DNA of 64,000 nt from Verrucomicrobiota bacterium (GTDB lineage: Bacteria; Verrucomicrobiota; Verrucomicrobiia; Limisphaerales; SIBE01), in NCBI GenBank assembly GCA_016871535.1, contig VHCZ01000001.1:22733-86732 (forward strand), read 5' to 3'. How positions within the stretch are numbered: the stretch's first letter is position 1; each line of letters opens with the position of its first letter. Below are positions 2,786 to 62,188 of the stretch, piece by piece. Position numbers and translations under genes: made by a program. The notes beneath the pieces were generated by a model. The model was not told the DNA's origin. It searched no databases and worked only from the letters and a program-made list of their open reading frames with translations.

Positions 2786-3087
2786 TGGACAGTTCAGTTT
2801 GTTTCTTCTCTACAGTGCGCCGTCAGGCCGGAAAAAGGACCAGCCACAGATAAAACTTTTCGTTGCGGGCCGATGCCCTCAGAACGGCAATTCATTTAAC
2901 CACAGAGATCGCAGAGAAAAGAAGATGAGCAAGACCAGCGTTTCACCTGCCGGGTGATGGGGTCCGACGCCTGAACTGTTTGCCCTTCTTTGTGTTCTCT
3001 GCGCTCTCTGTGGTTGAACCGCTTTTTCCAGTTTAACAGGAGAAAACGGGGCGAGGATGGCTATTTCGATTAGCTCTGTTTTCTCAG

Positions 3088-17529: not shown

Positions 17530-17573
17530 ACCGTGATCTTAGCGCAGCTTGATTGCTGGGTCTCAACCCCTCA

Positions 17574-17846
17574 GAGCGTGTCCGAAAATTGCGCGGGGTC
17601 CTGCGGCGAGGGATTTTGGCTGTGGCCAAGGCGGCGAGGTCCGAGCATCCCCAACGCGGGCTGTAAGGACCGAGCCAACGCAGGCCACGGACAAAAGACC
17701 CGCCGCCCGGAGGGTTTTCGCGCCAAAGGCCGCCTGGCTTCGTTGCTCCTCAGTCGAAGATCCAGGGAGGATATTCTCCTTCGTCGCGCCTCGCCATCCG
17801 GCCTTTGGCGCGAAAACAGGACCCCGCGGAATTTTCGGACACGCTC
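17574..17846. mobile_element. MITE-A copy 1 (273 bp, non-autonomous)
   Basis: 30-bp terminal inverted repeats GAGCGTGTCCGAAAATT(g/c)CGCGGGGTCCTG. Direct TCA flanks at 17571-17573 and 17847-17849. No transposase-like ORF. 272/273 identical to the inverted copy at 38739-39011. Confidence 0.9.
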
Positions 17847-17855
17847 TCAAAGATT

Positions 17856-17946: not shown

Positions 17947-19125
17947 ATGAGCAAAAACTACATCTTCTCCTCCGAGTCCGTCGGCGAAGGCCATCCCGAC
18001 AAGGTCTGCGATACGATCTCTGATGCCGTCCTGGATGCTTGCCTCGCGCAGGACAAATTCAGCCGCGTCGCTTGCGAGTGCTACGCCAAGAGCAACCTCG
18101 TCATCGTCGGCGGCGAGATCACGACCAAAGCCAGGCTGGACTACAACGCCATCGCCCGCCAGGCCATTCGCGAAATCGGCTACACGCACGACGACGACGT
18201 GTTCCACGCGGATCGGGTGTTGATCATGAACGCGATCACGCAACAAAGTCCGGACATCGCGCAAGGAGTGGATGCTCGTTCGGCCGAAGGCAAGGAGACT
18301 GCCGAGCAAGGGGCTGGAGACCAGGGATTGATGTTCGGCTACGCCACCAATGAGACTCCGGAATTGATGCCCGCGCCCATCATGTACGCCCATCAACTTG
18401 GCCGCGAACTCAATCGCATCCGGAAGAACGGAAAGGTGAAATGGCTGCGCCCCGATTCCAAGACGCAAGTCTCCGTTCAGTACGTGGACGACCAGCCTGT
18501 CCAAATCACCAACGTGGTTGTCTCCACTCAGCACTCCGCCGATGTCAAGCACCGCACCATCAAAGAATTTGTCATTGAGGAGGTCATCAGAAAGGTTCTG
18601 CCAAAGCATCTGCTCCGCAAAACCACTAAGTTTCTCATCAATCCCACCGGCCGATTTGTCGTGGGCGGGCCGCAAGGCGACACCGGTTTGACCGGACGCA
18701 AGATCATCGTCGATTCCTACGGCGGGATGGGCCGTCACGGCGGCGGCGCCTTCTCGGGCAAGGATCCCTCCAAAGTGGACCGCAGCGCGGCTTACATGGG
18801 ACGCTACGTGGCAAAGAACATCGTGGCTTCCGGCCTCGCGACCAGCGCAGAAATCCAGTTTGCTTACGCCATCGGCCATCCCGATCCCGTCAGCGTTTGC
18901 GTGAACACGTTTGGCACGGGCCTGGTTCCGGATGATTTGATCGAGAAAGCCGTGTGCGAAGTGTTCAGTTTCAAACCGGCGCACATCATCCGGCAGTTGG
19001 ACTTGTTGCGCCCGATCTATTCGCGAACCACCAACTACGGCCACTTTGGCAAAGTCGATGACCTCGAAAGCATTTCCTGGGAACGCACAGACAAAGCCGC
19101 GGCCCTGAAACGCGCCGTGAAATGA
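17947..19125 (+). CDS. metK: S-adenosylmethionine synthetase
   Basis: [10 protein letters not shown] and [19 protein letters not shown]; full-length MetK. Confidence 0.97.
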
Positions 19126-21551: not shown

Positions 21552-21903
21552 GTGTTGCGATTTTCCAAAGCCCACAATAATTTCGGCGCCGAAGCGGCAT
21601 ACTGATCAGACCGTGGGAATAGAATACATTTTGCCAGGAGGGATTTTGGCCAGCCGCGAGGAGCGCGCGAAGCGGTGTATCCCTGCGATCCACAACGAGC
21701 GAGCGACGAAGCGGCGGGCCAAAAGACCCCTCGCCCTGCGGGTTGCGCCGCATTTGGGCTCTGGCTTCGTTGCTCCTCAGTCGAAGATCCACCAGGGATA
21801 TTCTCCTTCGTCGCGCCTGAGCCCAAATGCGACGCAACAAAGTGTATTCTATCCCACGGTCTGATCAGTAAATGCCGCGCTCCGACGTATTGCGAAGCAA
21901 CAC
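21552..21903. mobile_element. MITE-B (core-related element, termini unresolved)
   Basis: Inverted repeats ACTGATCAGACCGTGGGAATAGAATAC (from 21601) and GTATTCTATCCCACGGTCTGATCAGT (to 21869). Weaker pairing extends out to GTGTTGC (21552) / GCAACAC (21903). It contains the MITE-A 57-nt core at 21761-21817 (53/57 by eye). Confidence 0.6.
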
Positions 21904-26006: not shown

Positions 26007-26024
26007 TCCTCACGAACCTGATTC

Positions 26025-26103
26025 AACCACGGATTAAACGGATCACACGGATAAAGCGGATAAAGCCGCTTCTCCATCCGCGAAATCCGTGAAATCCGTG
26101 GTT
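26025..26103. repeat. CACGGAT-type palindrome, copy 1 of 6
   Basis: AACCACGGATtaAACGGATcaCACGGATaaaGCGGAT...ATCCGCGaaATCCGTGaaATCCGTGGTT. The arms are built of tandem ACGGAT-containing units. Confidence 0.85.
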
Positions 26104-26391
26104 AAAGAATCTGTTCAGGGCGCGACGCTGGCCTTCGCGCTCACATGTGTGGTCAGCACCCTACCGCCCCTCCGTGCCGAGGTGCCGGGCGTGATCCGAG
26201 TTCAGGGCACGCTGGAGGTCAAAGGCAACCCGCACAACGCAAGCGCCTATTTGAAATTCGCCATCGACCACAGGAACCTTCACGGAACCGGTCGAGTCAC
26301 AGGAAAGAGAGCGAAAAGGGGACGTAACTCCCCGGCCAATGACCACCAGGACAAATCCAATCCAAAGCGAAGTCTTGGCGCGGCGCTTCAT

Positions 26392-26542
26392 TCGCCCCAG
26401 CCCACCGGGGCGGGGCGGCGCCTGGCAGGCTGCGGCGTTGCTCGTCGGTCACAGCCTCACCGGGGGGCTGCTCCCTCCTCGCGCCTTGCATCCGGCCAGG
26501 CGGCGCTCCCGCCAAAACCCCAAGTTATTTTTGAGCAGACCC
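26392..26542. mobile_element. Truncated MITE-C (right half only)
   Basis: CGCCCCAGCCC...CCGCCAAAACCccAAGTTATTTTTGaGCAGACCC matches the right half of 58278-58547. It is followed by TTA, and the left half is absent. Confidence 0.75.
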
Positions 26543-36950: not shown

Positions 36951-37091
36951 GAGCCTGTCTGAAAAATGGGTGGAACGGGCTACCAGCCCGTGTTTGGCGG
37001 CAACCTGCCGCCAAAAGGCCCGGCGGGCTGGTAGCCCGCCGCAACAGGCCGGTGGCCTGTTCCACCCAGAAGACAATTTTCAGACAGGCTC
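36951..37091. mobile_element. MITE-D (141 bp)
   Basis: Terminal inverted repeats GAGCCTGTCTGAAAA (perfect 15 bp, weaker pairing further in). Direct TAA flanks at 36948-36950 and 37092-37094. Internal hairpins GGCTACCAGCCCG/CGGGCTGGTAGCC. It lies 52 nt upstream of the ilvD ATG. Confidence 0.8.
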
Positions 37092-37170
37092 TAAGAGCAA
37101 ATGAACGAGTGGCGGACGAGGTTCGCCATCCTCAAATTGTGCTTCTCATTCTTGCGGATTTGATGCTCCC

Positions 37171-38148
37171 TTGCCGCTGTGGCTTCGAGGCTCGAATTCG
37201 TCACAGCTTTCGAAGCAACGCCTGGCTGAAGCGCGGAAACAAGGCAAAGAAGCAGTTCGCCAGACCGGAAGGGCCGTCAGGACGCGTGGTGTTGAGGACG
37301 TGGGGGTGATCATTGACCTCCTTCTCTCTTACCGCGCCGTAGAGTGTTGGCCGGAGATGATCGATCTTGCCAAAGGCCTGGCCGGTCCGCTGGCCTCAAC
37401 CGCCATGGTTCAGGAACAACTGGCTCTGGCCCTAAATCGGGAGGGTAAGACGGAGGAGGCGGTCAAAGTCTTGGACAACCTTGTTAGACGGCACGGGATC
37501 ACAAGTGAAACGAGCGGGATTCTGGGGCGCGTGTACAAGGACGCGGCGGAAAGATACCGCCCGATCGATGAGAAGAAAGCGAGCGTGTACTTGGAGAAGG
37601 CCATTGAGTCGTATCTAAGGGGTTTTGAGTTTGACGCGAAGGATGCTTACCCAGGTATCAACGCGGTCACGCTTATGGAATTGAGAGATCAACCGAATCG
37701 TCCAAAGGATCTTATTCCAAGAATCTCGGAAGCTCTGGAGCGCCAGATTGCCTCCGGCAAGGCCGACTATTGGGATTATGCGACTCAACTCGAGATTGCG
37801 GTTCTGCTCGGAGAGGAGAAGACCGCAAAAAGCGCTCTCCAAATGGCGGTCGCCACCGATCGAGAAACCTGGGAACCCAAAAGCACGGCAAATAACCTGA
37901 ACTTGATCCGAAATGCACGACTCAGGCGAGAATTGAGATCGGCTCAAGAGGCGGCGAATGCCGCCGGTGCCGCCGCCGGCAGACAGCAAGTCCAGACAGG
38001 AGCCGGCCAAAGGGCTGCCGCGAGGAGTGCGCAAAGGGCGGAGCAGACGGCGCGTCGTGACGCTGAGCAAGCGGCGAAACAAAAGGCAGATTGGGTCGAG
38101 AAAATCGAAAAGGATCTCCTGGCTCACGCGGAATTCCTGTCCTCCTGA
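37171..38148 (+). CDS. DUF4071 (TRAFs-binding-like TPR) domain protein with Ala/Gln-rich coiled-coil tail, possibly 5'-truncated
   Basis: LLLSYRAVECWPEMIDL and SGILGRVYKDAAE...YLEKAIESYLRGFEFDAKDAYPGINAVTLMEL match the DUF4071 signature as I remember it. There is no upstream effector domain, and MITE-D lies about 80 nt upstream. Confidence 0.5.
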   Translation: MPLWLRGSNSSQLSKQRLAEARKQGKEAVRQTGRAVRTRGVEDVGVIIDLLLSYRAVECWPEMIDLAKGLAGPLASTAMVQEQLALALNREGKTEEAVKVLDNLVRRHGITSETSGILGRVYKDAAERYRPIDEKKASVYLEKAIESYLRGFEFDAKDAYPGINAVTLMELRDQPNRPKDLIPRISEALERQIASGKADYWDYATQLEIAVLLGEEKTAKSALQMAVATDRETWEPKSTANNLNLIRNARLRRELRSAQEAANAAGAAAGRQQVQTGAGQRAAARSAQRAEQTARRDAEQAAKQKADWVEKIEKDLLAHAEFLSS

Positions 38149-38222
38149 TGGGGATAATTTGCGGAGTGTCGTTGAGCGCCCGAATTGCCTTGTTCCAATT
38201 CTGATTCGCGTTCATTCCACAC

Positions 38223-38287
38223 AACCACGGATAACGCGGATAAAATAAGGAACAGAATCATCCGCGCCATCCGCGAAATCCGCGGTT
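38223..38287. repeat. CACGGAT-type palindrome, copy 3
   Basis: AACCACGGATaaCGCGGATaaa...ATCCGCGccATCCGCGaaATCCGCGGTT. Confidence 0.8.
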
Positions 38288-38320
38288 AATCCCCTCTCGA
38301 AGAAAAGTATCGCTGTAGTG

Positions 38321-38354
38321 TTAACCCATTTAACGATTTAACGTTGTAACGATT
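38321..38354. repeat. TAACGAT-type tandem tract
   Basis: TTAACCCATTTAACGATTTAACGTTGTAACGATT. Confidence 0.6.
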
Positions 38355-38380
38355 TGGCTGCGGCGTCAGCCGCGCTGGGT

Positions 38381-39646
38381 CTATTCGCGCTTTCCATGTT
38401 CGCCTGCTACATGGGCAAAAGCGTAGAAGTGGTTCTCCGTCCGCACGTAGAGAGTGTCCTCCACGATGGCGGGCGTGGCCAGGATCGGCTCGCCGAAGTT
38501 GTTTCGGGCCAGCACCTCCAGCGATTCGCCGGCGCGGTAAATCACCACCACGCCCGGCTGCGACGCCACACAGATTTTTCCATTCGCGGCCACGGGCGAG
38601 GCATAGTAATCCCCAAGGGCGCCGAGGCTTTCCTCCTGATAGGCGGCCTGACCGGTCTTCGCGTCAAAGCAAGAAACCAGCCCGCCGTTTTTCACCAGGT
38701 AAACCCGGCCTTCGTAGAACAGCGGCGTGGGGACGTAAGAGCGTGTCCGAAAATTCCGCGGGGTCCTGTTTTCGCGCCAAAGGCCGGATGGCGAGGCGCA
38801 ACGAAGGAGAATATCCTCCCTGGATCTTCGACTGAGGAGCAACGAAGCCAGGCGGCCTTTGGCGCGAAAACCCTCCGGGCGGCGGGTCTTTTGTCCGTGG
38901 CCTGCGTTGGCTCGGTCCTTACAGCCCGCGTTGGGGATGCTCGGACCTCGCCGCCTTGGCCACAGCCAAAATCCCTCGCCGCAGGACCCCGCGCAATTTT
39001 CGGACACGCTCTAAGGCAGCCCGCGCTTTTGTTTCCAGACCACGTGTGAGGCCGTGACTTCGCCGCAGCCATCCGGTCGCACGGCCAGAAGCGCATTCTC
39101 GGACCGGTCAAAAATGTTCGCGATGGATTCCCATTCCGCCTGCGTGATCCATCCATCTTTGTTGGCATCGACATAAAGGAAATGCTGTTTGGCCGGACCG
39201 GACGGCGCTTCGTCGCGGGTGAGTTGGCCGTCGTGGTTTTGATCGCCTCGCTCCAGCAACGCGGAAAATGGCGGCAGCTTGCTCACGCCCGAACCGTGCG
39301 TCCAGCCGCCCGCGAAGATCAAACCGTCTCCTGCCACGGGCGTCGCCACGATTTCATTCGGCAGGCCTCGAACGCGCCATTGTTCGGCGCCATCGCAGAG
39401 CCGATGCGCCGCGAGCCGGAGAGTGCTGGCCAGGATGATGAATTCCGGTCTCTCTCGCGGCCACAGCAACGGCGTGGCGAACCCGCGTCGGTACTCGGGA
39501 CGATCCAGCTTCCAGATCGTCTCGCCCGTTTGAGCATCCACTGCCAGCAGATAGGAGCCGACATCCTGATCGCAGGCGAGACGCCGCCAGACTGCACGGT
39601 TTGGAAATCGCGTCGCTCGCGATTGCGGAGATGAACAACATCCCAT
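38381..39646 (-). pseudogene. PQQ-like beta-propeller protein with EF-hand pair, split by MITE-A and 5'-truncated
   Basis: Upstream half: SYLLAVDAQTGETIWK, EF-hand loops GDQNHDGQLTRDE and DANKDGWITQAEW, ending ...VVWKQKRGLP. Downstream half starts YVPTPLFYEGRVYLVKNGGLVSCFDAKTGQ... The 273-bp MITE sits exactly between them. The N-terminus and signal peptide are missing. Confidence 0.8.
38739..39011. mobile_element. MITE-A copy 2 (273 bp, inverted relative to copy 1)
   Basis: Same 30-bp terminal inverted repeats. Direct TAA flanks at 38736-38738 and 39012-39014. One mismatch to copy 1 (38800 vs 17785). Confidence 0.92.
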
Positions 39647-40173
39647 TGAAGAGCGACCCGCGCGCCGCCATCTGGCTGCTCGACGCGCTCGACGTCATGC
39701 AGAAGCTTGGCGTGAAGGTGTTGCTCGTGGCCCAGTTCTACAAAGGCGACCTCAAGGGCGACGCGGCGGGCATCGACCGCACCGTGGACATTCTGAAGGA
39801 AGCCGCCCCGCGCGCCGAGAAAGCCGGAGTGATTTTGGGTCTGGAGAATTACCTGAGCGCGGAGGAAAACCTGAACATCATTCAGCGGGTCGGATCGAGA
39901 GCCGTTCAAGTTTACTACGACGTCGGCAATTCTACGGACAAAGGCTACGACATCTACAAAGAGATCCGGCTGCTCAAAGGACAGATTTGCGAGTTCCATT
40001 TCAAGGACGCCGGGTTCCTGCTCGGCCAGGGCCGAATTGATTTCGCGAAGGTTCGGGAGGCGATCGACGAGATTGGATTCTCCGGTTGGGCGCAAATCGA
40101 AGCCGCCGCGCCGAAGGACCTGGTCTCGGATTACCAGGCCGACCTCAAGTATCTGCGCAACTGCTTTTCTTGA
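39601..40173 (+). pseudogene. Xylose-isomerase-like TIM-barrel (sugar phosphate isomerase/epimerase) C-terminal fragment
   Basis: ...GVILGLENYLSAEENLNII..., VQVYYDVGNS, CEFHFKDAGFLLGQGRIDFAKVREAIDEIGFSGWAQIE. About 90 N-terminal residues are missing. The 5' end abuts the truncated beta-propeller gene. Confidence 0.6.
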
Positions 40174-40216
40174 GGTCCAACGGAGGGCAGGCTTCCAGCC
40201 TGTCGCTGAAGATCTT

Positions 40217-40326
40217 CCCATGAACCGTTCCTCCGGACCGTGGCCTTTAGGCCGCTTTAGCGCTGGCCTCCAGAGAGTGCGCGGAAGCAGCCTGAAGGCT
40301 GCGGTCCGCACGGTTTCCGGTTCATC
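40217..40326. repeat. about 110-bp palindrome, CCTTTAGGC/GCCTGAAGGC family, copy 2
   Basis: CCCATGAACCGTTCCTCCGGACCGTGGCCTTTAGGC...GCAGCCTGAAGGCTGCGGTCCGCACGGTTTCCGGTTCATCGG. It is preceded by the hairpin GGGCAGGCttccAGCCTGtC (40185-40204). Confidence 0.8.
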
Positions 40327-40409
40327 GGTAGGGCGAGCCTGTCCCAGCGAGCCGAGTCGGACGTGTTCCACGCGCGTCGAGCGGCTCGCTGGGACGGACT
40401 CGTCCTACC
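40327..40409. repeat. 83-bp GGTAGGGCGAGCC palindrome, copy 3
   Basis: GGTAGGGCGAGCCTGTCCCAGCGAGCCG...CGGCTCGCTGGGACGGACTCGTCCTACC. It directly abuts the previous repeat. Confidence 0.85.
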
Positions 40410-40483
40410 GCGTTCACGACGAGAGCAAATCAAGCGTAAGCCGGTCTGAACCGGCGAGACCCGGACAAATCGTCGCTGCTGGT

Positions 40484-43255
40484 TCAGACGCGATCGAGCG
40501 CGTCGGCCACAGGCTGCCAGGGCGCGGCGGCGTCTCCCGCGCAGCGGCGCAAGGGCGCGAGCGCTTCGCGCCAGCAATGAGACAGAGGCGGTAGCAACGC
40601 GTCTTTGAATTCGGCGGGTTCAGGCATTCGCTGTTCGACAGCCAGGGCTCGGCTTAAGGCCCACGCGGATTCCAGGAGTGCGGTCCGCGCTTCGTCGTCG
40701 AGTCCCCCGGCACCGAGCAGCCGGGCCATTTTCATTTTGCGCGCCGCCTGCGTGCGATGAGCCTGAGCTTTCGCCTGCTCTTCCGGTGTGAGCAGGGTTG
40801 AGGCGGAGGCCGAGTCCGTCGCCGGGAATAACGGCCGGCTTCCGCGTGCAGTGGGGGTGATGAGGCCCGCAGCCGCCAGCCTTTCGAGCGCTTCGTGCGT
40901 TGCGCGGTCGATGACTTCAAGTTGAACCGGAGCCAAAGGATCGCTCTGGCCGGCGCCGAAGAACTGTTCATGCAATGCGCCGAGCTTCTCCCGCCACTGG
41001 GCAGCCTCGCGATCGACGACAACGTAGAGCACCGAATGCGCGCCCTGCGCCGGGTACCGTTCTTCGCATCGGACCAGCGCGCCGTTGAGTTGGTCCAGTG
41101 CCCTCTGGGCGAAGCCCAAGGGGCGGTCGGCCGGCAACGGAGAGCTAAGATTCCGATCCTTGGAGAGCGATGCATCCGGTTTGCCCCGGGCGGTTCCATT
41201 GGACGACATGAGCTGTTCCAGTTTCGAGAGGAAAGCCTGGCGGCCGGTGCGCAGTTTGATCTCCTTCAAGTCGCCCTTCAGATCGAGCACGCCATCGGAG
41301 AGCGCCTGCTTGTTGGCCAGCGTTTCCAGCATGCGATGTTCGATCGTCTTTTCCGAGACGAGATTGATGACCGTCACGGAGCGCGTCTGATGCTTGCGCC
41401 AGGCGCGAGCGATGCGTTGCTCCAACTTGGCCGGGTTCCAGGGCAAGTCGCAATTAATGACGACGCTGGCCACCTGGAGGTTGAGGCCGGCCGCGCCAGA
41501 GTCCGTGCTGAGGAACGCGCGGCAATGTGGGTCGCTCTTGAAGGCGTTGATCTCCCCGCGGCGGCGGCGCTGCGGCACCGTTCCGGTATGCCAGGCGAAA
41601 CCCAGGTCCATCCGTTCGCAAAGCCCGCGCACGAGTTCGAGCATCCGTTCCCACTCCGAAAAGATGATGACCTTGGCATCGTTCTCGCGGCACTCTTCGA
41701 GCAGCTTCTCGATCTCGGCAAGCTTCGGGCAGACCTTGTCGTCCTGATCCAGGATGTAATTGGTGTCGCAGGTCATGCGCATCATGGCGAGGTGGCGCAT
41801 GAGTTTGTCCTGCTCTTGCTGGCTCAACGGGCGGCGCCTGGCGATGTTGGCCAAACGCGCGACGACGCCCTCGTGGTTTTCGTACGCGGCCTGCTGCTGC
41901 GGGCTCATGGGGACGAAATGATTGCGGTCGGTGCGGTCGGGCAATTCGGTTTCCACGTCGGCCTTGCGGCGGCGCAGCATGTGCGGGCGGATGCGCTCGT
42001 GAAGTTTGTCCAGGTTGCGGTATCCGGCGGGCCGCCCGCGGTCGTCGAGTTCATAGAACTCGCGGTTGAACCGGAAGAGCGGTCCGAGCACGGAGGGTTC
42101 GAGGAAATCCATGAGCGAATGCATTTCGTCGATGCGGTTCTCGATGGGCGTCCCGGTGAGCACGAACGCGTAGCGGCTGCGGAGCCGCTTGATCGCCTGG
42201 GTGGTCTTCGTGCTCCAATTCTTGATGCGCTGCGCTTCGTCGAGCACGACGATGTCCGGACGCAGCCGGGCATTCACCTCCAGCGAGTCCGCCAGCATCT
42301 GCTCGTAATTCACCAGCGTGAAGAACGGCGCGCCTGCATAGTTCCGCAACCGCTCGTGCCGAGGGCCGAAGACGATCTGGTAAGGCAAATCCGTGAACCG
42401 CTGGATTTGCTCCTCCCACTCGGTTTTCAATGACGCGGGCGTGACCACGAGCGCGCGTTGCGCCCGGCTCAACCGATGCAGCAGCGCGCAAGCGGCGATG
42501 GCCTGGATCGTTTTGCCCAGGCCCATTTCATCCGCCAGCAGCGCGCGTTCCGTGAACGCGAGGTGCAGCATGCCTTCCCGCTGGTAGGGGAACAGCGGGA
42601 CTTTCGTTTCTTGCGCAGGCCATTCGCTGTTGTGGACCTTGAATTCGTACTCGCGTCTGAGTTGAAGCCGTTCCTCGGCTCGGCGGCGGGATTCAAGCCA
42701 GGGCGCGACTTCTTGGGAGATGCGCAATGCGGGACAATCGGCCTGGCCCAGGTGTTCCAAAGCGGCGATCGCATCCTCGGGAGAACCGTTCTTGAGCTGG
42801 CCTTCCGCATTGAACCAATCGCGCACGGGACGGGGCGGCGGCCCGTGGGGGATCACGCAACGCAGCGCTCCCGTTCCGCCATCGGGGACGACATCGATCC
42901 GGGGGGAGCCATTCTGCTGGGCGGCCTTGAAAAGGCGTTTGAACCGGCCTTCCAGGTGCAGCAGCACCGCTTCGGCGTGCTTGCACGTGCCGAGCCCGTT
43001 GATTCGGAAATCCACGCAATCGCAAGCGAACTGGCGCTCGCGCAAATCGCGAATCTCGACCGAGTAGGCCAGGCCGCTGGGCGATTGGACGCGGAAGTTC
43101 GAGAAGATGGGATGACGCGGATCGAGGTTGGCGATGGCGAACGTTTCGGTCTGCGCCCGGGACCGGCGCCGGTTGATTTCGTCCTGATCCGTCGTGCGCC
43201 AGTTGTGTGGCGAAGGCACGGCGGCTTCCGTTTGCTTCTTCTGAGTTGCAGCCAT
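40484..43255 (-). CDS. SNF2-family helicase with N-terminal SWIM zinc finger
   Basis: SWIM (CDCVDFRINGLGTCKHAEAVLL) and helicase motifs (ADEMGLGKT, VLDEAQRIKN, LTGTPIENR, QRIARAWRKHQ). About 250-aa C-terminal region of unknown function. Confidence 0.9.
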   Translation of the reverse strand: MAATQKKQTEAAVPSPHNWRTTDQDEINRRRSRAQTETFAIANLDPRHPIFSNFRVQSPSGLAYSVEIRDLRERQFACDCVDFRINGLGTCKHAEAVLLHLEGRFKRLFKAAQQNGSPRIDVVPDGGTGALRCVIPHGPPPRPVRDWFNAEGQLKNGSPEDAIAALEHLGQADCPALRISQEVAPWLESRRRAEERLQLRREYEFKVHNSEWPAQETKVPLFPYQREGMLHLAFTERALLADEMGLGKTIQAIAACALLHRLSRAQRALVVTPASLKTEWEEQIQRFTDLPYQIVFGPRHERLRNYAGAPFFTLVNYEQMLADSLEVNARLRPDIVVLDEAQRIKNWSTKTTQAIKRLRSRYAFVLTGTPIENRIDEMHSLMDFLEPSVLGPLFRFNREFYELDDRGRPAGYRNLDKLHERIRPHMLRRRKADVETELPDRTDRNHFVPMSPQQQAAYENHEGVVARLANIARRRPLSQQEQDKLMRHLAMMRMTCDTNYILDQDDKVCPKLAEIEKLLEECRENDAKVIIFSEWERMLELVRGLCERMDLGFAWHTGTVPQRRRRGEINAFKSDPHCRAFLSTDSGAAGLNLQVASVVINCDLPWNPAKLEQRIARAWRKHQTRSVTVINLVSEKTIEHRMLETLANKQALSDGVLDLKGDLKEIKLRTGRQAFLSKLEQLMSSNGTARGKPDASLSKDRNLSSPLPADRPLGFAQRALDQLNGALVRCEERYPAQGAHSVLYVVVDREAAQWREKLGALHEQFFGAGQSDPLAPVQLEVIDRATHEALERLAAAGLITPTARGSRPLFPATDSASASTLLTPEEQAKAQAHRTQAARKMKMARLLGAGGLDDEARTALLESAWALSRALAVEQRMPEPAEFKDALLPPLSHCWREALAPLRRCAGDAAAPWQPVADALDRV

Positions 43256-43341
43256 GCCGGGATCATTCGCGGCCCCTCCGGCAAGTCAACGTGAAGTTAT
43301 TCACCGAAAGGCTAAGGCGTATCTATTCAGTCCGACGGCTC

Positions 43342-43485
43342 CGTTCCCCTCACCCCGGCCTTCTCCCCAGGGGAGAGGGAGAACATTTCCTGGCCGGTGG
43401 TTCAGTTCACCATTCGGGGACCATTCCTGCGTTGGAAAAAACAACTCCCTCTCCCTGAGGGAGAGGGCTGGGGTGAGGGGGAACG
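43342..43485. repeat. 144-bp composite palindrome (CCCTCACCCC.../...GGGGTGAGGG), full copy
   Basis: The left module CGTTCCCCTCACCCCGGCCtTCTCCCcaggGGAGAGGGAGAAC and the right module CTCCCTCTCCCtgagGGAGAGGGCTGGGGTGAGGGGGAACG are mutually inverted. The centre is unique. Confidence 0.85.
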
Positions 43486-43506
43486 CGGCGTCGAATTGCA
43501 CAGACC

Positions 43507-49508: not shown

Positions 49509-51475
49509 GTTCTTTTCAGCCCTTTTGGGGAATCCCCCGGCCACCGAGCTTCGAGGGCGCCGTTCCTCCTCACCCCGGCCCTCTCCCTCAGAGAGAGGGA
49601 GACATGGATTGCAGCCTCCACCATTCCGACCTCCATGAATCGACCCATCACTCCCTTCGATTTCACCCTCTCCCCAAGGGAGAGGGCCGGGGTGAGGGGG
49701 AAGAGCATGCGAGCGTATCCACGGCGTTTTTGTTTCACCGCGCGCTCGGATTGGCTTTTCTTCATTTGATCCTTCTATTCAGCGGCCTGGCTTTCGCGGA
49801 CGAAGTTCCGGAGAGCGACGTCGTTTTCCGAGCCCTCAGCGATGAGCTGAAGCGGACGATGACGTTGCGCCTGGCGGATCTCGATAAACCGTACTTCGTC
49901 CAGTATTCCGTCGATGACACGGCCACCTATCGCATCACCGCTTCGTATGGCTCGATTGTAAACTCGGATCAAAACCGTTCCCGCATTTTTCAGAGTCAGG
50001 TCCGAGTCGGCGCCTACGACCTCGACAATTCAAATTTTGTCGGACGCGGCGGCGGCCAGCGCGGTCTCAGCGGCAGCGCGGAGCTTCCCGTGGATGACGA
50101 TTATGCGGGCTTGCGGCACGCGATCTGGCTCGCCACGGACGCCCAGTACAAGGACGCCGTGGAAACGCTGACGCAAAAGCGCGCTTACATGAAAGACCGC
50201 AACGTCCAGGAGCGCGCGGCGGATTTCGCCCAAGCCGGCGCCGTCACCGTAATCCAGCCCCGGCTCAACCTCTCCATCGATTCCAAGGCGTGGGAGGATT
50301 ATGCGCGCCGCATTTCCGCACGTTTTGCGAGTTATCGCCACATTCAGAGCGCAGACTTGAGCCTCGTCGCGGGCGTGGAAAACCGTTACCTCGTGAATTC
50401 GGAGGGCTCCCGTCTTCGCTACACCGACACGGGCGCTCTCCTGCGAATCAGCGCGGGATCCCAGGCGCCGGATGGCCAGCGGGTTGCGGATTCGCTGGCC
50501 TATTACGCGTCCTCGCTGGAGGGGCTTCCCGCATTGGAAAAAGTCCTGGCCGACGTCGAGGAACTGGCGCAGAGGCTGGCCTCGATGCTGAAGGCCCCGG
50601 TGTTGGAAGATTACACGGGGCCGGTGTTGTTCGACGGTGTTGCGACTGCGCAGTTGTTCCGCCAACTCCTTGCCGCCGGCCTCGCAGGCCAGCCTGAGCC
50701 CGTGGGCTCACAACGGCGCGCTTTGCAGAGCGGCGACGACCTTGAAACGCGATTGGGCAAGCGCATTCTGCCCACGACATTTCACATCTACGATGATCCG
50801 CGCAACCGGAAATTCCAGGACACATTCCTCGCCGGCCATTATCAGTTCGACGACGAAGGGGTTCCGGCGGAGCGCGTGGAACTCGTGGTCGAGGGCAAAC
50901 TCGACGGCATGATCATGTCGCGGACGCCGACGAAACAATTCGCGAAATCCAACGGGCACGGCCGCCGTGTCGGCGGGGAAACGCCGCGTTCGGCAATCGG
51001 CTGCCTTTACATCGAAGCTGCCAAGGGCTTGAGTCCGGACGAGCTGAAGAAAGAACTGATCGACGCCGCCGAGGCGGAAGGACTCAAATTCGGGTTGCGA
51101 ATCACCGCGCTTTCGGGCCGCGTTGGTGGGACGGCTGGCTTTGGCGGGCCAGGCGGGCGATTCGGCCGCGGCGGCGGGCGCGGTGGCGCGGGACGTTTGG
51201 TTGGCGATCCGATCTCGATTTACAAGGTGTATGTCGCGGATGGCCGGGAAGAGCCGGTGAGGGGCTGCGAGTTCAGCGCGATCGATTTACGGAGCTTGCG
51301 CCGGATCATCGCGGCCGGGAGCGCGCAGAGCGTGCACAACAGCGCCGGGGGCACCGCGCCGGCGTCTTCCGTGATCGCTCCGGCGGTGTTGATCGAAGAA
51401 CTGGAGCTGTCGCGCATCCGGCAAGAAGCGGAGAAGAAACCCATCCTGGAAGCGCCGCATGCGAGGTCGAGGTGA
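49505..51475 (+). CDS. TldD/PmbA-family protein (PmbA-like partner)
   Basis: Family blocks throughout (e.g. FDDEGVPAERVELV, FAKSNGHGRR). No HExxxGH seen. Gly/Arg-rich insert GGTAGFGGPGGRFGRGGGRGGAGR. ATG 49505 overlaps the upstream stop, but codons about 19-67 are the 144-bp repeat. TTG 49730 would give a clean signal peptide (FHRALGLAFLHLILLFSGLAFA). Confidence 0.8.
   Translation: MSSFQPFWGIPRPPSFEGAVPPHPGPLPQREGDMDCSLHHSDLHESTHHSLRFHPLPKGEGRGEGEEHASVSTAFLFHRALGLAFLHLILLFSGLAFADEVPESDVVFRALSDELKRTMTLRLADLDKPYFVQYSVDDTATYRITASYGSIVNSDQNRSRIFQSQVRVGAYDLDNSNFVGRGGGQRGLSGSAELPVDDDYAGLRHAIWLATDAQYKDAVETLTQKRAYMKDRNVQERAADFAQAGAVTVIQPRLNLSIDSKAWEDYARRISARFASYRHIQSADLSLVAGVENRYLVNSEGSRLRYTDTGALLRISAGSQAPDGQRVADSLAYYASSLEGLPALEKVLADVEELAQRLASMLKAPVLEDYTGPVLFDGVATAQLFRQLLAAGLAGQPEPVGSQRRALQSGDDLETRLGKRILPTTFHIYDDPRNRKFQDTFLAGHYQFDDEGVPAERVELVVEGKLDGMIMSRTPTKQFAKSNGHGRRVGGETPRSAIGCLYIEAAKGLSPDELKKELIDAAEAEGLKFGLRITALSGRVGGTAGFGGPGGRFGRGGGRGGAGRLVGDPISIYKVYVADGREEPVRGCEFSAIDLRSLRRIIAAGSAQSVHNSAGGTAPASSVIAPAVLIEELELSRIRQEAEKKPILEAPHARSR
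49561..49704. repeat. 144-bp composite palindrome, full copy
   Basis: CGTTCCTCCTCACCCCGGCCCTCTCCCtcagaGAGAGGGAGAC ... CACCCTCTCCCcaagGGAGAGGGCCGGGGTGAGGGGGAAG. Confidence 0.85.
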
Positions 51476-58277: not shown

Positions 58278-58547
58278 GGGTCTGTGCAAAAATAAATTCC
58301 GGTTTTGCCGGAGGTGATTTCGCTTTCTGGCGAGGCACGACGAAGGAGCATAGCCAGGGCTCCGCGACTGAGGAGAAACGAAGCCAGAAAGCGAAATCGC
58401 CCCAGCCCTCCGGGGCGGGGCGGCGCCTGGCCGGCTGCGGCGTTGCTCGTCGGTCACAGCCCCAAAACGGGGATGCTCCCTCCTCGCGCCTTGCATCCGG
58501 CCAGGCGGCGCTCCCGCCAAAACCGGAAGTTATTTTTGCACAGACCC
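58278..58547. mobile_element. MITE-C (270 bp)
   Basis: About 33-bp terminal inverted repeats GGGTCTGTGCAAAAATAA(a/c)TTCCGGTTTTG(c/g)CGG. Direct TAA flanks at 58275-58277 and 58548-58550. It contains the shared core in reverse orientation (58329-58385). Confidence 0.85.
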
Positions 58548-58579: not shown

Positions 58580-58723
58580 TCGTTCCCCCTCACCCCGGCC
58601 CTCTCCCTCGGGGAGAGGGAGAACCCTGCGCTGTGCTTCCGTGAACCCGACGGATCCGGACTTGCCCCAGCGCGGCCGACGATGTTCCCTCTCCCTGAGG
58701 GAGAGGGTCAGGGTGAAGGGGAA
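58580..58723. repeat. 144-bp composite palindrome, full copy
   Basis: CGTTCCCCCTCACCCCGGCCCTCTCCCtcggGGAGAGGGAGAAC ... CCCTCTCCCtgagGGAGAGGGTCAGGGTGAAGGGGAAG. Confidence 0.85.
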
Positions 58724-62112: not shown

Positions 62113-62188
62113 AACCACGGATGAACAGGGATGAACACGGATAGGAGCGCAACTTTGAATCCGTGTTTATCCGTGTCCATCCGTGGTT
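62113..62188. repeat. CACGGAT-type palindrome, copy 6
   Basis: AACCACGGATgaACAGGGATgaACACGGAT...ATCCGTGtttATCCGTGtccATCCGTGGTT, in the convergent gap between two stop codons. Confidence 0.85.

What the first reader, a model, noticed from the sequence alone, without database searches (positions are those of the whole stretch)
38736..39014. 273-bp MITE inserted exactly between two codons of a PQQ-like beta-propeller/EF-hand gene, with a clean TAA target duplication
Deleting 38739-39011 plus one of the two flanking TAA triplets restores the minus-strand sequence GGG CTG CCT TAC GTC CCC. The translation then reads ...VVWKQKRGLP|YVPTPLFYEGRVYLVKNGG... So ORF 39011..39646 and the C-terminal ~118 residues of ORF 38381..39007 are two halves of one gene. 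The element has 30-bp terminal inverted repeats with one mismatch and direct TAA/TAA flanks. It has no transposase-like ORF, so it is a non-autonomous element caught in a gene-disrupting insertion.
Basis: seen in the sequence. Interest (0 to 1): 0.8.

Follow-up and report, generated by a model that had tools for sequence, protein, structure and literature searches.

The report
Small mobile element inside a decayed gene
A 273-base non-coding "jumping" DNA element with no transposase of its own sits inside the remnant of a beta-propeller gene in a Verrucomicrobia genome; this is an ordinary kind of event, but the element belongs to an abundant, previously undescribed family built from a conserved hairpin module.

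Summary
Window 38739..39011 is a 273-bp element with 30-bp terminal inverted repeats (one mismatch), flanked by TAA/TAA. Removing it plus one TAA restores a minus-strand frame that aligns without gaps to PQQ_2/EF-hand propellers (RGLP|YVP is invariant in homologues).

It is a real, multi-copy MITE:
- A second copy (272/273 identical, TCA/TCA flanks) lies at 17574..17846.
- 96 of 97 ends abut T-N-A, usually within C|TNA|G.
- Independent assemblies reproduce the junctions.

A 3-bp TNA duplication and GAG termini fit an IS5-family (IS1031-like) or PIF/Harbinger-type transposase acting in trans. No autonomous partner was found.

It also lacks its first ~170 codons. At 39580/39581 it is fused head-to-head to a 5'-truncated sugar-phosphate isomerase gene. 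The MITE therefore lies in a pseudogene with two lesions, and their order is unknown.

The element is TIR + hairpin module + mini-hairpin + inverted module + TIR. The same ~100-nt module, with covarying stems and a conserved core, occurs in MITE families with four different termini.

Verdict: a new member of a known kind, of modest interest.

The parts
38736..38738 (.). Left copy of the 3-bp target-site duplication (TAA on the + strand, TTA on the coding strand)
   Evidence: The same T-N-A rule holds at 96 of 97 element ends in other loci.
38739..38768 (+). Left terminal inverted repeat, GAGCGTGTCCGAAAATTCCGCGGGGTCCTG
   Evidence: I8, 97% complementary.
38769..38870 (+). Hairpin module A. It has a 25-bp stem (38768-38792 with 38847-38871) enclosing the conserved core GGCGAGGCGCAACGAAGGAG...CGACTGAGGAGCAACGAAGCC. 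The sense strand is +.
   Evidence: I16. Covariance model R1 scores it 106.7 bits.
38872..38878 (.). Mini-hairpin linker (CC-TCC-GG) between the two modules
   Evidence: The equivalent CCC-NNNN-GGG linker is seen in the other families.
38879..38982 (-). Hairpin module B, a diverged inverted copy of module A. The sense strand is -.
   Evidence: R1 scores it 65.2 bits on the minus strand. See also alignment A2.
38982..39011 (-). Right terminal inverted repeat (one mismatch to the left repeat, G instead of C at position 18)
39012..39014 (.). Right copy of the target-site duplication (TAA). With the first G of the element it forms the in-frame TAG stop at 39013..39011 on the minus strand.
39015..39580 (-). 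Middle part of the PQQ_2 propeller/EF-hand gene remnant. It corresponds to homologue residues from about 166-177 to about 354-365 and includes two EF-hand loops (DQNHDGQLTRDE, DANKDGWITQAE).
   Evidence: tblastn places it at 39580..39014. See also alignment A1 and Pfam.
38381..38735 (-). C-terminal ~118 codons plus the stop codon of the same propeller gene remnant
39580..39581 (.). Deletion or rearrangement junction where the 5'-truncated propeller gene (minus strand) meets a 5'-truncated AP_endonuc_2 / sugar-phosphate isomerase gene (plus strand) head to head
   Evidence: Propeller homology starts at 39580. DNA homology to the intact isomerase orthologue L116 starts at window 39580, which is L116 nt 415 or codon 81. 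The junction is identical in L112 and L113, which come from two different samples.
39581..40173 (+). Remnant of the sugar-phosphate isomerase (xylose isomerase-like TIM barrel) gene, lacking its first 80 codons
   Evidence: Pfam matches profile positions 69-249 of 249. Homologues are 277-300 aa.
17574..17846 (-). Second copy of the same 273-bp MITE in opposite orientation (272/273 identical). It has TCA/TCA flanks at 17571-17573 and 17847-17849. It is intergenic, about 100 bp upstream of the metK ORF.

Best explanation
Window 38739..39011 is one copy of a recently active, multi-copy, non-autonomous DNA transposon (a MITE) in a Verrucomicrobiota genome.

Mechanism, and what is shown versus inferred:
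- Inferred: a DDE transposase encoded elsewhere recognises the ~30-bp terminal inverted repeats, which begin with GAG.
- Inferred: it makes a 3-nt staggered cut at a T-N-A target, preferentially within C|TNA|G, and joins the element in. Gap repair then duplicates the triplet.
- Shown: the termini, the duplication, the target rule, the copy number and the near-identity of copies.
- Inferred from the 3-bp TNA duplication and GAG ends: the enzyme is of the IS5 family (IS1031-like group) or PIF/Harbinger type. No such enzyme was seen.

At this site the element landed in codons 'P-Y' of a PQQ_2 propeller/EF-hand gene and created an in-frame TAG. The gene has also lost its first ~170 codons and its promoter region through a separate deletion. 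That deletion fused it to a truncated neighbouring gene. The locus is therefore a pseudogene with two lesions.

Internally the element is not a deleted IS. It is two inverted copies of a ~100-nt hairpin module. The same module is shared by other MITE families in the same genomes that carry different termini.
For: Anatomy:
- The TIRs match at 29 of 30 positions, with TAA/TAA flanks.
- Excision restores a frame that is gap-free against eight homologues, with RGLPYVP invariant.
- The Pfam PQQ_2 match (1.8e-13) spans the junction.

Mobility:
- A second window copy is 272/273 identical and has a different duplication, TCA.
- 29 distinct full-length sites are 98.5-100% identical to the window copy. 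25 of these have matching TNA duplications (TTA 11, TAA 9, TGA 3, TCA 2).
- There are 45 and 52 distinct flanks at the two ends. 96 of 97 end in TNA, and C precedes it in 71 of 97.

No coding capacity: no Pfam hit in any frame.

Not an artefact:
- L112 (a 52-kb contig, 99.99% identical over 22.8 kb) carries the element and both junctions.
- L113, from another sample, is 100% identical and breaks off inside the element.

Family depth:
- An 81%-identical 273-bp relative with TTA/TTA flanks occurs in an unrelated sample (L127).
- 205 protein clusters are pseudo-ORFs read across relatives. The named ones come from Verrucomicrobia and Limisphaerales.

Literature:
- IS1031-group elements have a single ORF and a three-nucleotide target (PMC2516522).
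Against: - No autonomous element with these ends was found:
  - There is no IS-sized pair of termini in the window or in about 0.9 Mb of fetched loci.
  - The species-representative genome scan gave only two true MITE loci.
  - The plasmid search found nothing.
  - The viral scans gave only chance hits.
- The transposase family is therefore inferred from end and target features alone.
- 4 of 29 sites have non-matching flanks. Two of those sites, L012 and L062, share one flank with each other, which suggests recombination between copies or assembly chimeras.
- The interior shows no remnant of a transposase gene, so descent from a particular IS cannot be traced.
Confidence: 0.9

Rival explanations
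1. The element is a MITE but is mobilised by a transposase that is not of the IS5 / PIF-Harbinger type. Candidates would be another DDE family that can give short AT-centred duplications, or an as yet undescribed family.
For: No partner was found in any scan. A sister family with the same internal module has termini CTGATCAGACCGTGGGA and what looks like a 2-bp TA duplication. So more than one kind of enzyme may act on these modules. IS427-group IS5 elements in Paracoccus give mostly 2-bp duplications (PMC3281130), which shows that duplication length alone is not diagnostic.
Against: A strict 3-bp T-N-A duplication in a C|TNA|G context and termini starting with GAG are the combination described for IS1031-like IS5 elements and for PIF/Harbinger (and my own recollection of the ISfinder family table).
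Confidence: 0.2
2. The 273 bp are an assembly artefact: a repeat collapsed or mis-joined into the gene.
For: Assemblies of this population often break inside the element. Many contigs end near its centre. Some sites have mismatched flanks, and two of them share a flank with each other.
Against: The same insertion with both junctions is in an independently assembled 52-kb contig. The right junction is also in a contig from a third sample. The flanks carry a perfect 3-bp duplication, and precise excision restores a conserved frame.
Confidence: 0.02
3. The insertion is a tolerated or functional in-frame peptide insertion, as with Rickettsia palindromic elements, rather than a disruption.
For: Element plus duplication is 276 nt, or 92 codons. 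Four of the six frames of the element are completely open and the other two have one stop each. The downstream frame is continuous with the C-terminal gene part.
Against: In this frame the junction itself creates a TAG stop (CCT TAG AGC). The gene lacks its N-terminal third and its start. Most of the stop depletion is explained by dinucleotide composition (TNA 2 observed vs 6.3 expected, P about 0.02, and not significant in sister families).
Confidence: 0.03
4. The element is a REP/REPIN-type hairpin repeat spread by a RAYT (IS200/IS605-like) enzyme, not a TIR/TSD transposon.
For: The interior consists of long hairpins. The window also holds other palindromic repeat families.
Against: The element has 30-bp terminal inverted repeats and a consistent 3-bp target duplication at dozens of sites. 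REPINs lack both features (my own knowledge of that family).
Confidence: 0.01

Closest known systems
MITEs derived from or mobilised by IS5-family insertion sequences (IS1031-like group)
   Same: It is small and non-coding, with terminal inverted repeats beginning with GAG. It makes a 3-bp duplication of a T-N-A target. It is multi-copy with near-identical copies.
   Different: No cognate IS was identified. The interior is not a remnant of an IS but two inverted copies of a conserved hairpin module. The host phylum is Verrucomicrobiota; I found no published description of this family, though I did not search the literature for it specifically.
Tourist-like MITEs / PIF-Harbinger superfamily (eukaryotes; distant relatives of IS5)
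   Same: It makes 3-bp TTA/TAA-type duplications. The target is palindromic with C and G flanking the triplet. From memory, PIF's target is CWCTTAGWG. It has short TIRs, high copy number and a size of about 270 bp.
   Different: The host is bacterial. The middle base of the target is free (TTA, TAA, TGA and TCA are all used). Membership is not applicable; the resemblance is mechanistic.
Rickettsia palindromic elements (RPEs) and other intragenic prokaryotic MITEs (review PMC10969869)
   Same: It is a palindromic element whose length is a multiple of three and which is poor in stop codons. It is found inside a protein-coding frame.
   Different: Here the junction creates a stop codon and the gene is a remnant. 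Among the 28 distinct sites examined, few restored long, protein-like ORFs.
Correia elements (Neisseria) and other structured bacterial MITEs
   Same: It is abundant, and the whole element can fold into a very stable hairpin-rich structure on either strand (z = -10 and -11).
   Different: Correia elements duplicate TA and have different ends. No promoter-like or terminator-like site was detected here.

Membership tests
MITE (miniature inverted-repeat transposable element) | Short length (well under ~600 bp) with no transposase coding capacity | tested here: met
   It is 273 bp. None of the six frame translations hits Pfam at E<=1.
MITE (miniature inverted-repeat transposable element) | Terminal inverted repeats | tested here: met
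   The repeats are 30 bp and match at 29 of 30 positions.
MITE (miniature inverted-repeat transposable element) | Target-site duplication of fixed length that differs in sequence between copies | tested here: met
   The window copies have TAA/TAA and TCA/TCA. 25 of 29 distinct sites have matching TNA triplets. 96 of 97 ends abut TNA.
MITE (miniature inverted-repeat transposable element) | Multiple dispersed, closely similar copies | tested here: met
   There are two copies in the window.
MITE (miniature inverted-repeat transposable element) | An empty (pre-insertion) site can be reconstructed or observed | tested here: inconclusive
   The empty site was reconstructed in silico and is colinear with homologues. 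No natural empty allele of this locus was found.
IS5 family, IS1031-like group (as the source of the transposase) | 3-bp target duplication, T-N-A | tested here: met
   The literature basis is PMC2516522 and PMC4122938.
IS5 family, IS1031-like group (as the source of the transposase) | Termini beginning with GAG | tested here: met
   The terminus is GAGCGTGTCC.... That this is typical of the group rests on my recollection of the ISfinder table and was not checked here.
IS5 family, IS1031-like group (as the source of the transposase) | A full-length element (~0.85-1 kb) with the same ends encoding a DDE (DDE_Tnp_1-type) transposase | tested here: not met
   No IS-sized pair of termini was found in the window or in about 0.9 Mb of loci. 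Nothing turned up in the genome, plasmid or viral scans. The rest of the host genome could not be searched.
Rickettsia-palindromic-element-like in-frame insert | The insertion is read through as part of the host protein | tested here: not met
   An in-frame TAG forms at the junction, and the gene is truncated at its 5' end.
Known structured RNA families (Rfam 15) | Match to a curated covariance model | tested here: not met
   There were no matches in the window at gathering thresholds, and none at E<=10 for 38700-39050.

The most novel reading that the evidence does not exclude
The ~100-nt hairpin module is itself a functional unit, either a structured RNA or a protein-bound DNA hairpin. On this reading, several MITE families with different termini carry and spread it through Verrucomicrobiota genomes as vehicles.

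Features consistent with this reading:
- There are two modules per element, in opposite orientation, so any transcript through the element contains one 'sense' copy.
- The module occurs with at least four different kinds of termini.
- The stems differ between families but stay paired. 96% of cells are paired, 27 of 31 pairs show changes on both sides, and slid controls give 32-44% paired.
- The enclosed core is more conserved than the outer stem (mean majority frequency 0.77 vs 0.64).
- On the sense strand, G-U pairs outnumber A-C mismatches 60 to 10.

Caveats:
- Many of these counts are shared by descent.
- The alignment was fitted to the model.
- Hairpin-templated repair of palindromic DNA could maintain pairing without any function.
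Probability: 0.15. Interest if true: 0.6.

Novelty: new member of a known kind. Interest (0 to 1): 0.3.

Why it matters
As a single event it matters little. A MITE inside an already decayed gene is routine genome erosion, and it should lower rather than raise expectations about this locus.

It has practical value for annotation:
- The ORFs at 38381..39007 and 39011..39646, and the 243-aa isomerase ORF listed in the protein collection (source hidden), are pseudogene fragments.
- Hundreds of database 'hypothetical proteins' are translations of this element family.
- The family fragments metagenome assemblies of these Verrucomicrobia, because many contigs end inside it.

It has modest biological value:
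- It documents a recently active TNA-targeting MITE with a clear C|TNA|G preference in an uncultured freshwater Verrucomicrobiota population.
- Several MITE families there are assembled from one conserved hairpin module with exchangeable ends. This is a tractable system for asking how MITEs acquire new termini, and whether the module does anything.

Tried and rejected
1. Search for the autonomous partner. All of the following failed:
- A 20-mer terminus scan of 185,579 species genomes gave two true MITE loci and one chance hit inside a TonB-type gene.
- A 17-mer scan of metagenomes gave only MITEs of 141-274 bp.
- A generic search for TNA-flanked, G-initial inverted ends 500-2500 bp apart in all fetched loci found only the coincidental 36951..39011 pair.
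- blastn against plasmids found nothing.
- Viral-contig scans gave five chance hits. One, with a weak partner at +875, lies inside a phage terminase gene.
- Single mid-contig terminus hits (L007, L048, L058) turned out to be other short MITEs, not ISs.

2. Known RNA families: Rfam returned nothing. A hammerhead reading of CUGAGGAG...GAAG was considered by eye and rejected, because helix II would be one base pair, GAAG replaces GAAA, and there is no Rfam hit.

3. Synteny of propeller homologues (L001, L002) did not show a neighbouring isomerase gene. The size of the deletion could therefore not be estimated.

4. Self-target avoidance or selection for open frames: stop and TNA depletion is striking against mononucleotide shuffles. 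It mostly disappears with dinucleotide-preserving shuffles.

5. A literature search for the terminal sequences as text strings gave nothing relevant.

6. Promoter and terminator scans of the element found no sites.

7. Two of the three contigs chosen for diverged relatives had no retrievable DNA.

Full report
**1. The observation**

- The element is 38739..39011, 273 bp and 64% G+C.
- It begins GAGCGTGTCCGAAAATTCCGCGGGGTCCTG. Its other end, reverse-complemented, is GAGCGTGTCCGAAAATTGCGCGGGGTCCTG. The repeats match at 29 of 30 positions, and complementarity stops at position 31.
- TAA lies immediately outside both ends, at 38736-38738 and 39012-39014.
- Deleting the element and one TAA gives the minus-strand frame ...ASHVVWKQKRGLP|YVPTPLFYEGRVYLVKNGGL...
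- The 17-nt terminus occurs 7 times in the window at up to 3 mismatches, against 0.34 expected.

**2. The interrupted gene**

Pfam places PQQ_2 (E = 1.8e-13) across the healed junction, with weak EF-hand hits. A database search found 1,245 homologues at E<=1e-10. The best is 79% identical, from Verrucomicrobia, and most carry PQQ_2 plus EF-hand_5.

In an alignment with eight homologues the healed protein is gap-free across the junction, and R-G-L-P-Y-V-P is invariant.

One refinement concerns the junction.
- On the coding strand the duplicated triplet is TTA, which straddles the Pro/Tyr codon boundary.
- The premature TAG is built from 'TA' of the duplication plus the first G of the element.
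- Element plus duplication is 276 nt, so the downstream gene part stays in frame. TAG is the only stop in that frame.

**3. The element is a mobile, multi-copy MITE**

Copies and variants:
- A second copy at 17574..17846 is 272/273 identical, inverted, intergenic and flanked by TCA/TCA.
- A 20-mer scan of one genome per species found two true loci. L004 is a 156-bp one-module variant in a Verrucomicrobiota MAG. L005 is a contig-end copy in a lake MAG.
Nearly all come from one series of freshwater-lake metagenomes (Ga01941xx). From memory of the 'K_DeepCast' sample name in L005, I believe this is Lake Tanganyika.
- Size variants of 141, 156, 167, 198 and 268 bp share the termini.

Target sites:
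- There are 29 distinct full-length sites, 98.5-100% identical to the window copy.
- Their flanks are TTA/TTA (11), TAA/TAA (9), TGA/TGA (3) and TCA/TCA (2).
- Four sites have mismatched flanks. Two of them, L012 and L062, share a flank with each other, so they look like inter-copy recombinants or assembly chimeras.
- Counting ends separately gives 45 and 52 distinct flanks. 96 of 97 end in T-N-A, and C precedes the triplet in 71 of 97. The preferred target is therefore C|TNA|G.

Other properties:
- No frame of the element hits Pfam.
- Excising each of 28 distinct sites restored few long, protein-like ORFs. The window copy is one of the few clearly within a gene.

**4. Not an artefact, but not polymorphic either**

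The neighbouring SNF2 helicase protein led to four other contigs.
- L112 (52 kb) is 99.99% identical to window 30484-53255 and includes the element.
- L113, from a different sample, is 100% identical over 38920-43425 and ends inside the element.
- Cluster look-up shows the truncated N-terminal fragment on 11 JGI contigs.
- No uninterrupted allele exists in the protein database.

**5.

- Homologues are 460-490 aa. tblastn finds only their residues from about 166-177 onward in the window, starting at 39580. The N-terminal third is nowhere in the 64 kb.
- On the other strand, the ORF 39601..40173 is a sugar-phosphate isomerase (AP_endonuc_2) that matches only profile positions 69-249. Its homologues are 277-300 aa.
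- DNA alignment to an intact orthologue (L116, 85% identity) starts exactly at window 39580, which is codon 81 of that gene.
- Two divergent genes are therefore fused head to head at 39580/39581, both lacking their 5' parts and any promoter region. The same junction is present in L112 and L113.

The simplest reading is one deletion spanning both gene starts. The propeller gene is thus a pseudogene with two lesions, and nothing in hand orders them.

**6. Which transposase?**

The following steps are inferred, not shown.
- A fixed 3-bp T-N-A duplication, a C|TNA|G context and termini starting with GAG match IS1031-like IS5-family elements. These have a single ORF and a three-nucleotide target (PMC2516522).
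- IS427-group relatives often give 2 bp (PMC3281130).
- No full-length partner was found anywhere I could look.
- With copies at about 99-100% identity, an active source must exist, or have existed very recently, in these genomes.

**7. Internal architecture**

The element is not a gutted IS. Its layout is TIR (30) + module A (38769-38870, sense on +) + a CC-NNN-GG mini-hairpin + module B (38879-38982, sense on -) + TIR. Either strand folds into a three-way structure with z = -10 or -11.

The same module occurs in other MITE families in the window and in the fetched contigs, with different ends.

| Termini | Duplication | Window example |
|---|---|---|
| GGGTCTGTGCAAAAATAA | TNA | 58278..58547 |
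| GTGGTCCATTTCATAAATACG | TNA | none in the window |
| CTGATCAGACCGTGGGA | apparently TA | 21602..21868 |
| GAGCCTGTCTGAAAA | not settled (TAA/CAA in the one copy, L080) | none in the window; the 141-bp element with these ends (36951..37091) lacks the module |

A covariance model built from ten modules gave these results.
- It finds nine strong hits in the window.
- It finds 141 non-overlapping hits in 100 loci. These are 64 distinct sequences in about 23 clusters at 85% identity.
- Across them, 96% of cells are paired and 27 of 31 pairs change on both sides. Slid controls give 32-44% paired.
- The enclosed core, A-GGCG-CG-A...GAGCAU...CUG...GAG-CAACGAAG, is more conserved than the outer stem (0.77 vs 0.64).
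- G-U pairs exceed A-C mismatches 60 to 10 on the sense strand.

Cautions apply to these counts.
- Few events are independent.
- The alignment is fitted to the model.
- Palindromic DNA can keep its arms complementary through templated repair.

Rfam has no match.

**8. Distribution**

The last protein search used one open frame of the element as a proxy for DNA. It returned 205 clusters at 52-98% identity, listed as unnamed or 'hypothetical protein'. Most come from a source labelled 'src', which I take from memory to be a soil metagenome catalogue. The named ones come from Verrucomicrobia and Limisphaerales MAGs. One retrievable relative (L127) is 81% identical, again exactly 273 bp, with GAGCCTGTCTTAAAATT ends and TTA/TTA flanks. 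The family is therefore old and widespread in this phylum, with a very recent burst in the lake population.

**9. Verdict**

This is a new family of a well-known kind of element, lying in a gene remnant. Interest is modest. The one thread that could raise it is the conserved hairpin module shared by MITEs with different ends.

Noticed in passing
window 39580-39581 (context 39015-40173): There is an exact head-to-head fusion of two 5'-truncated genes. The propeller gene (minus strand) lacks about 170 codons, and a sugar-phosphate isomerase gene (plus strand) lacks 80 codons. No spare bases lie between the two homology blocks. The junction is reproduced in contigs from two other samples.
   Followed up: yes
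window 17574-17846: A second copy of the 273-bp MITE (272/273 identical, opposite orientation, TCA/TCA flanks) lies about 100 bp upstream of the metK ORF (17947..19125).
   Followed up: partly
window 36951-37091: A 141-bp MITE has related termini (GAGCCTGTCTGAAAA) and TAA/TAA flanks, but a different palindromic interior (R1 score only 14.9 bits). It lies about 55 bp upstream of the likely ilvD start. Its outer end and the far end of the 273-bp element form an inverted pair 2,061 bp apart, both flanked by TAA. This pair encloses a MAP3K_TRAF_bd/TPR-S gene and the propeller C-terminus. It is probably coincidental, since each MITE has its own duplication.
   Followed up: partly
window 58278-58547: A 270-bp MITE of a sister family has termini GGGTCTGTGCAAAAATAA, TAA/TAA flanks and the same two-module interior.
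   Followed up: partly
window 21602-21868: A 267-bp MITE has the same two-module interior but unrelated termini (CTGATCAGACCGTGGGA). Its duplication looks like 2-bp TA in all three copies seen. This suggests a different transposase acts on the same module.
   Followed up: partly
window ~26377-26542: This is a truncated remnant (right half, one module, end ...GAGCAGACCC|TTA) of the GGGTCTGTGC-type family.
   Followed up: no
window 38769-38982, with the equivalent modules at 17603-17816, 21633-21838 and 58307-58511: A ~100-nt hairpin module has a conserved purine-rich core (GGCGAGGCGCGACGAAGGAG ... GACTGAGGAGCAACGAAGCC). Its stems covary, and G-U pairs are in excess on one strand. There are two inverted copies per element. 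Rfam has no match, and the function is unknown.
   Followed up: partly
window 38739-39011 and sister elements: The elements are strongly depleted in stop codons in all six frames (2 in total vs about 14 expected from mononucleotide shuffles). They are also depleted in TNA triplets, their own target. The only two TNAs sit at equivalent core positions of the two modules. Most of the effect vanishes with dinucleotide-preserving shuffles (P about 0.02 for this family).
   Followed up: yes
loci L076 (~234-506), L094 (~2342-2614), L075/L083: MITE copies are inserted directly against the end of another MITE (flanks ...CACAGACCC|TAA|GAGCG... and ...GACAGGCTC|TAA|GAGCG...). This gives back-to-back elements that share a TNA triplet.
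   Followed up: no
window 43322-43504, 49563-49702, 58583-58723; also 2895-3018, 26022-26106, 62113-62188: Other short palindromic repeat families are unrelated to the MITE. One is built on TCACCCCGGCCCTCTCCC...GGGAGAGGG. Another is built on reiterated CACGGAT/ATCCGTG units.
   Followed up: no
window 39601-40173 and protein P0145: The protein collection lists a 243-aa product (P0145, source hidden) on the 108-kb contig for the truncated isomerase. Its upstream extension would run into the propeller remnant in another frame, so it is a likely annotation artefact. I did not read the P0145 sequence or map its start. Hundreds of database 'hypothetical proteins' are likewise translations of this MITE family.
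   Followed up: partly
locus L005 (record title 'Acidobacteria bacterium ... K_DeepCast_65m'): A 2.2-kb contig that begins inside this MITE is binned as Acidobacteria. Every other taxonomic label attached to the element or its neighbours is Verrucomicrobia or Limisphaerales. The contig is probably mis-binned.
   Followed up: no
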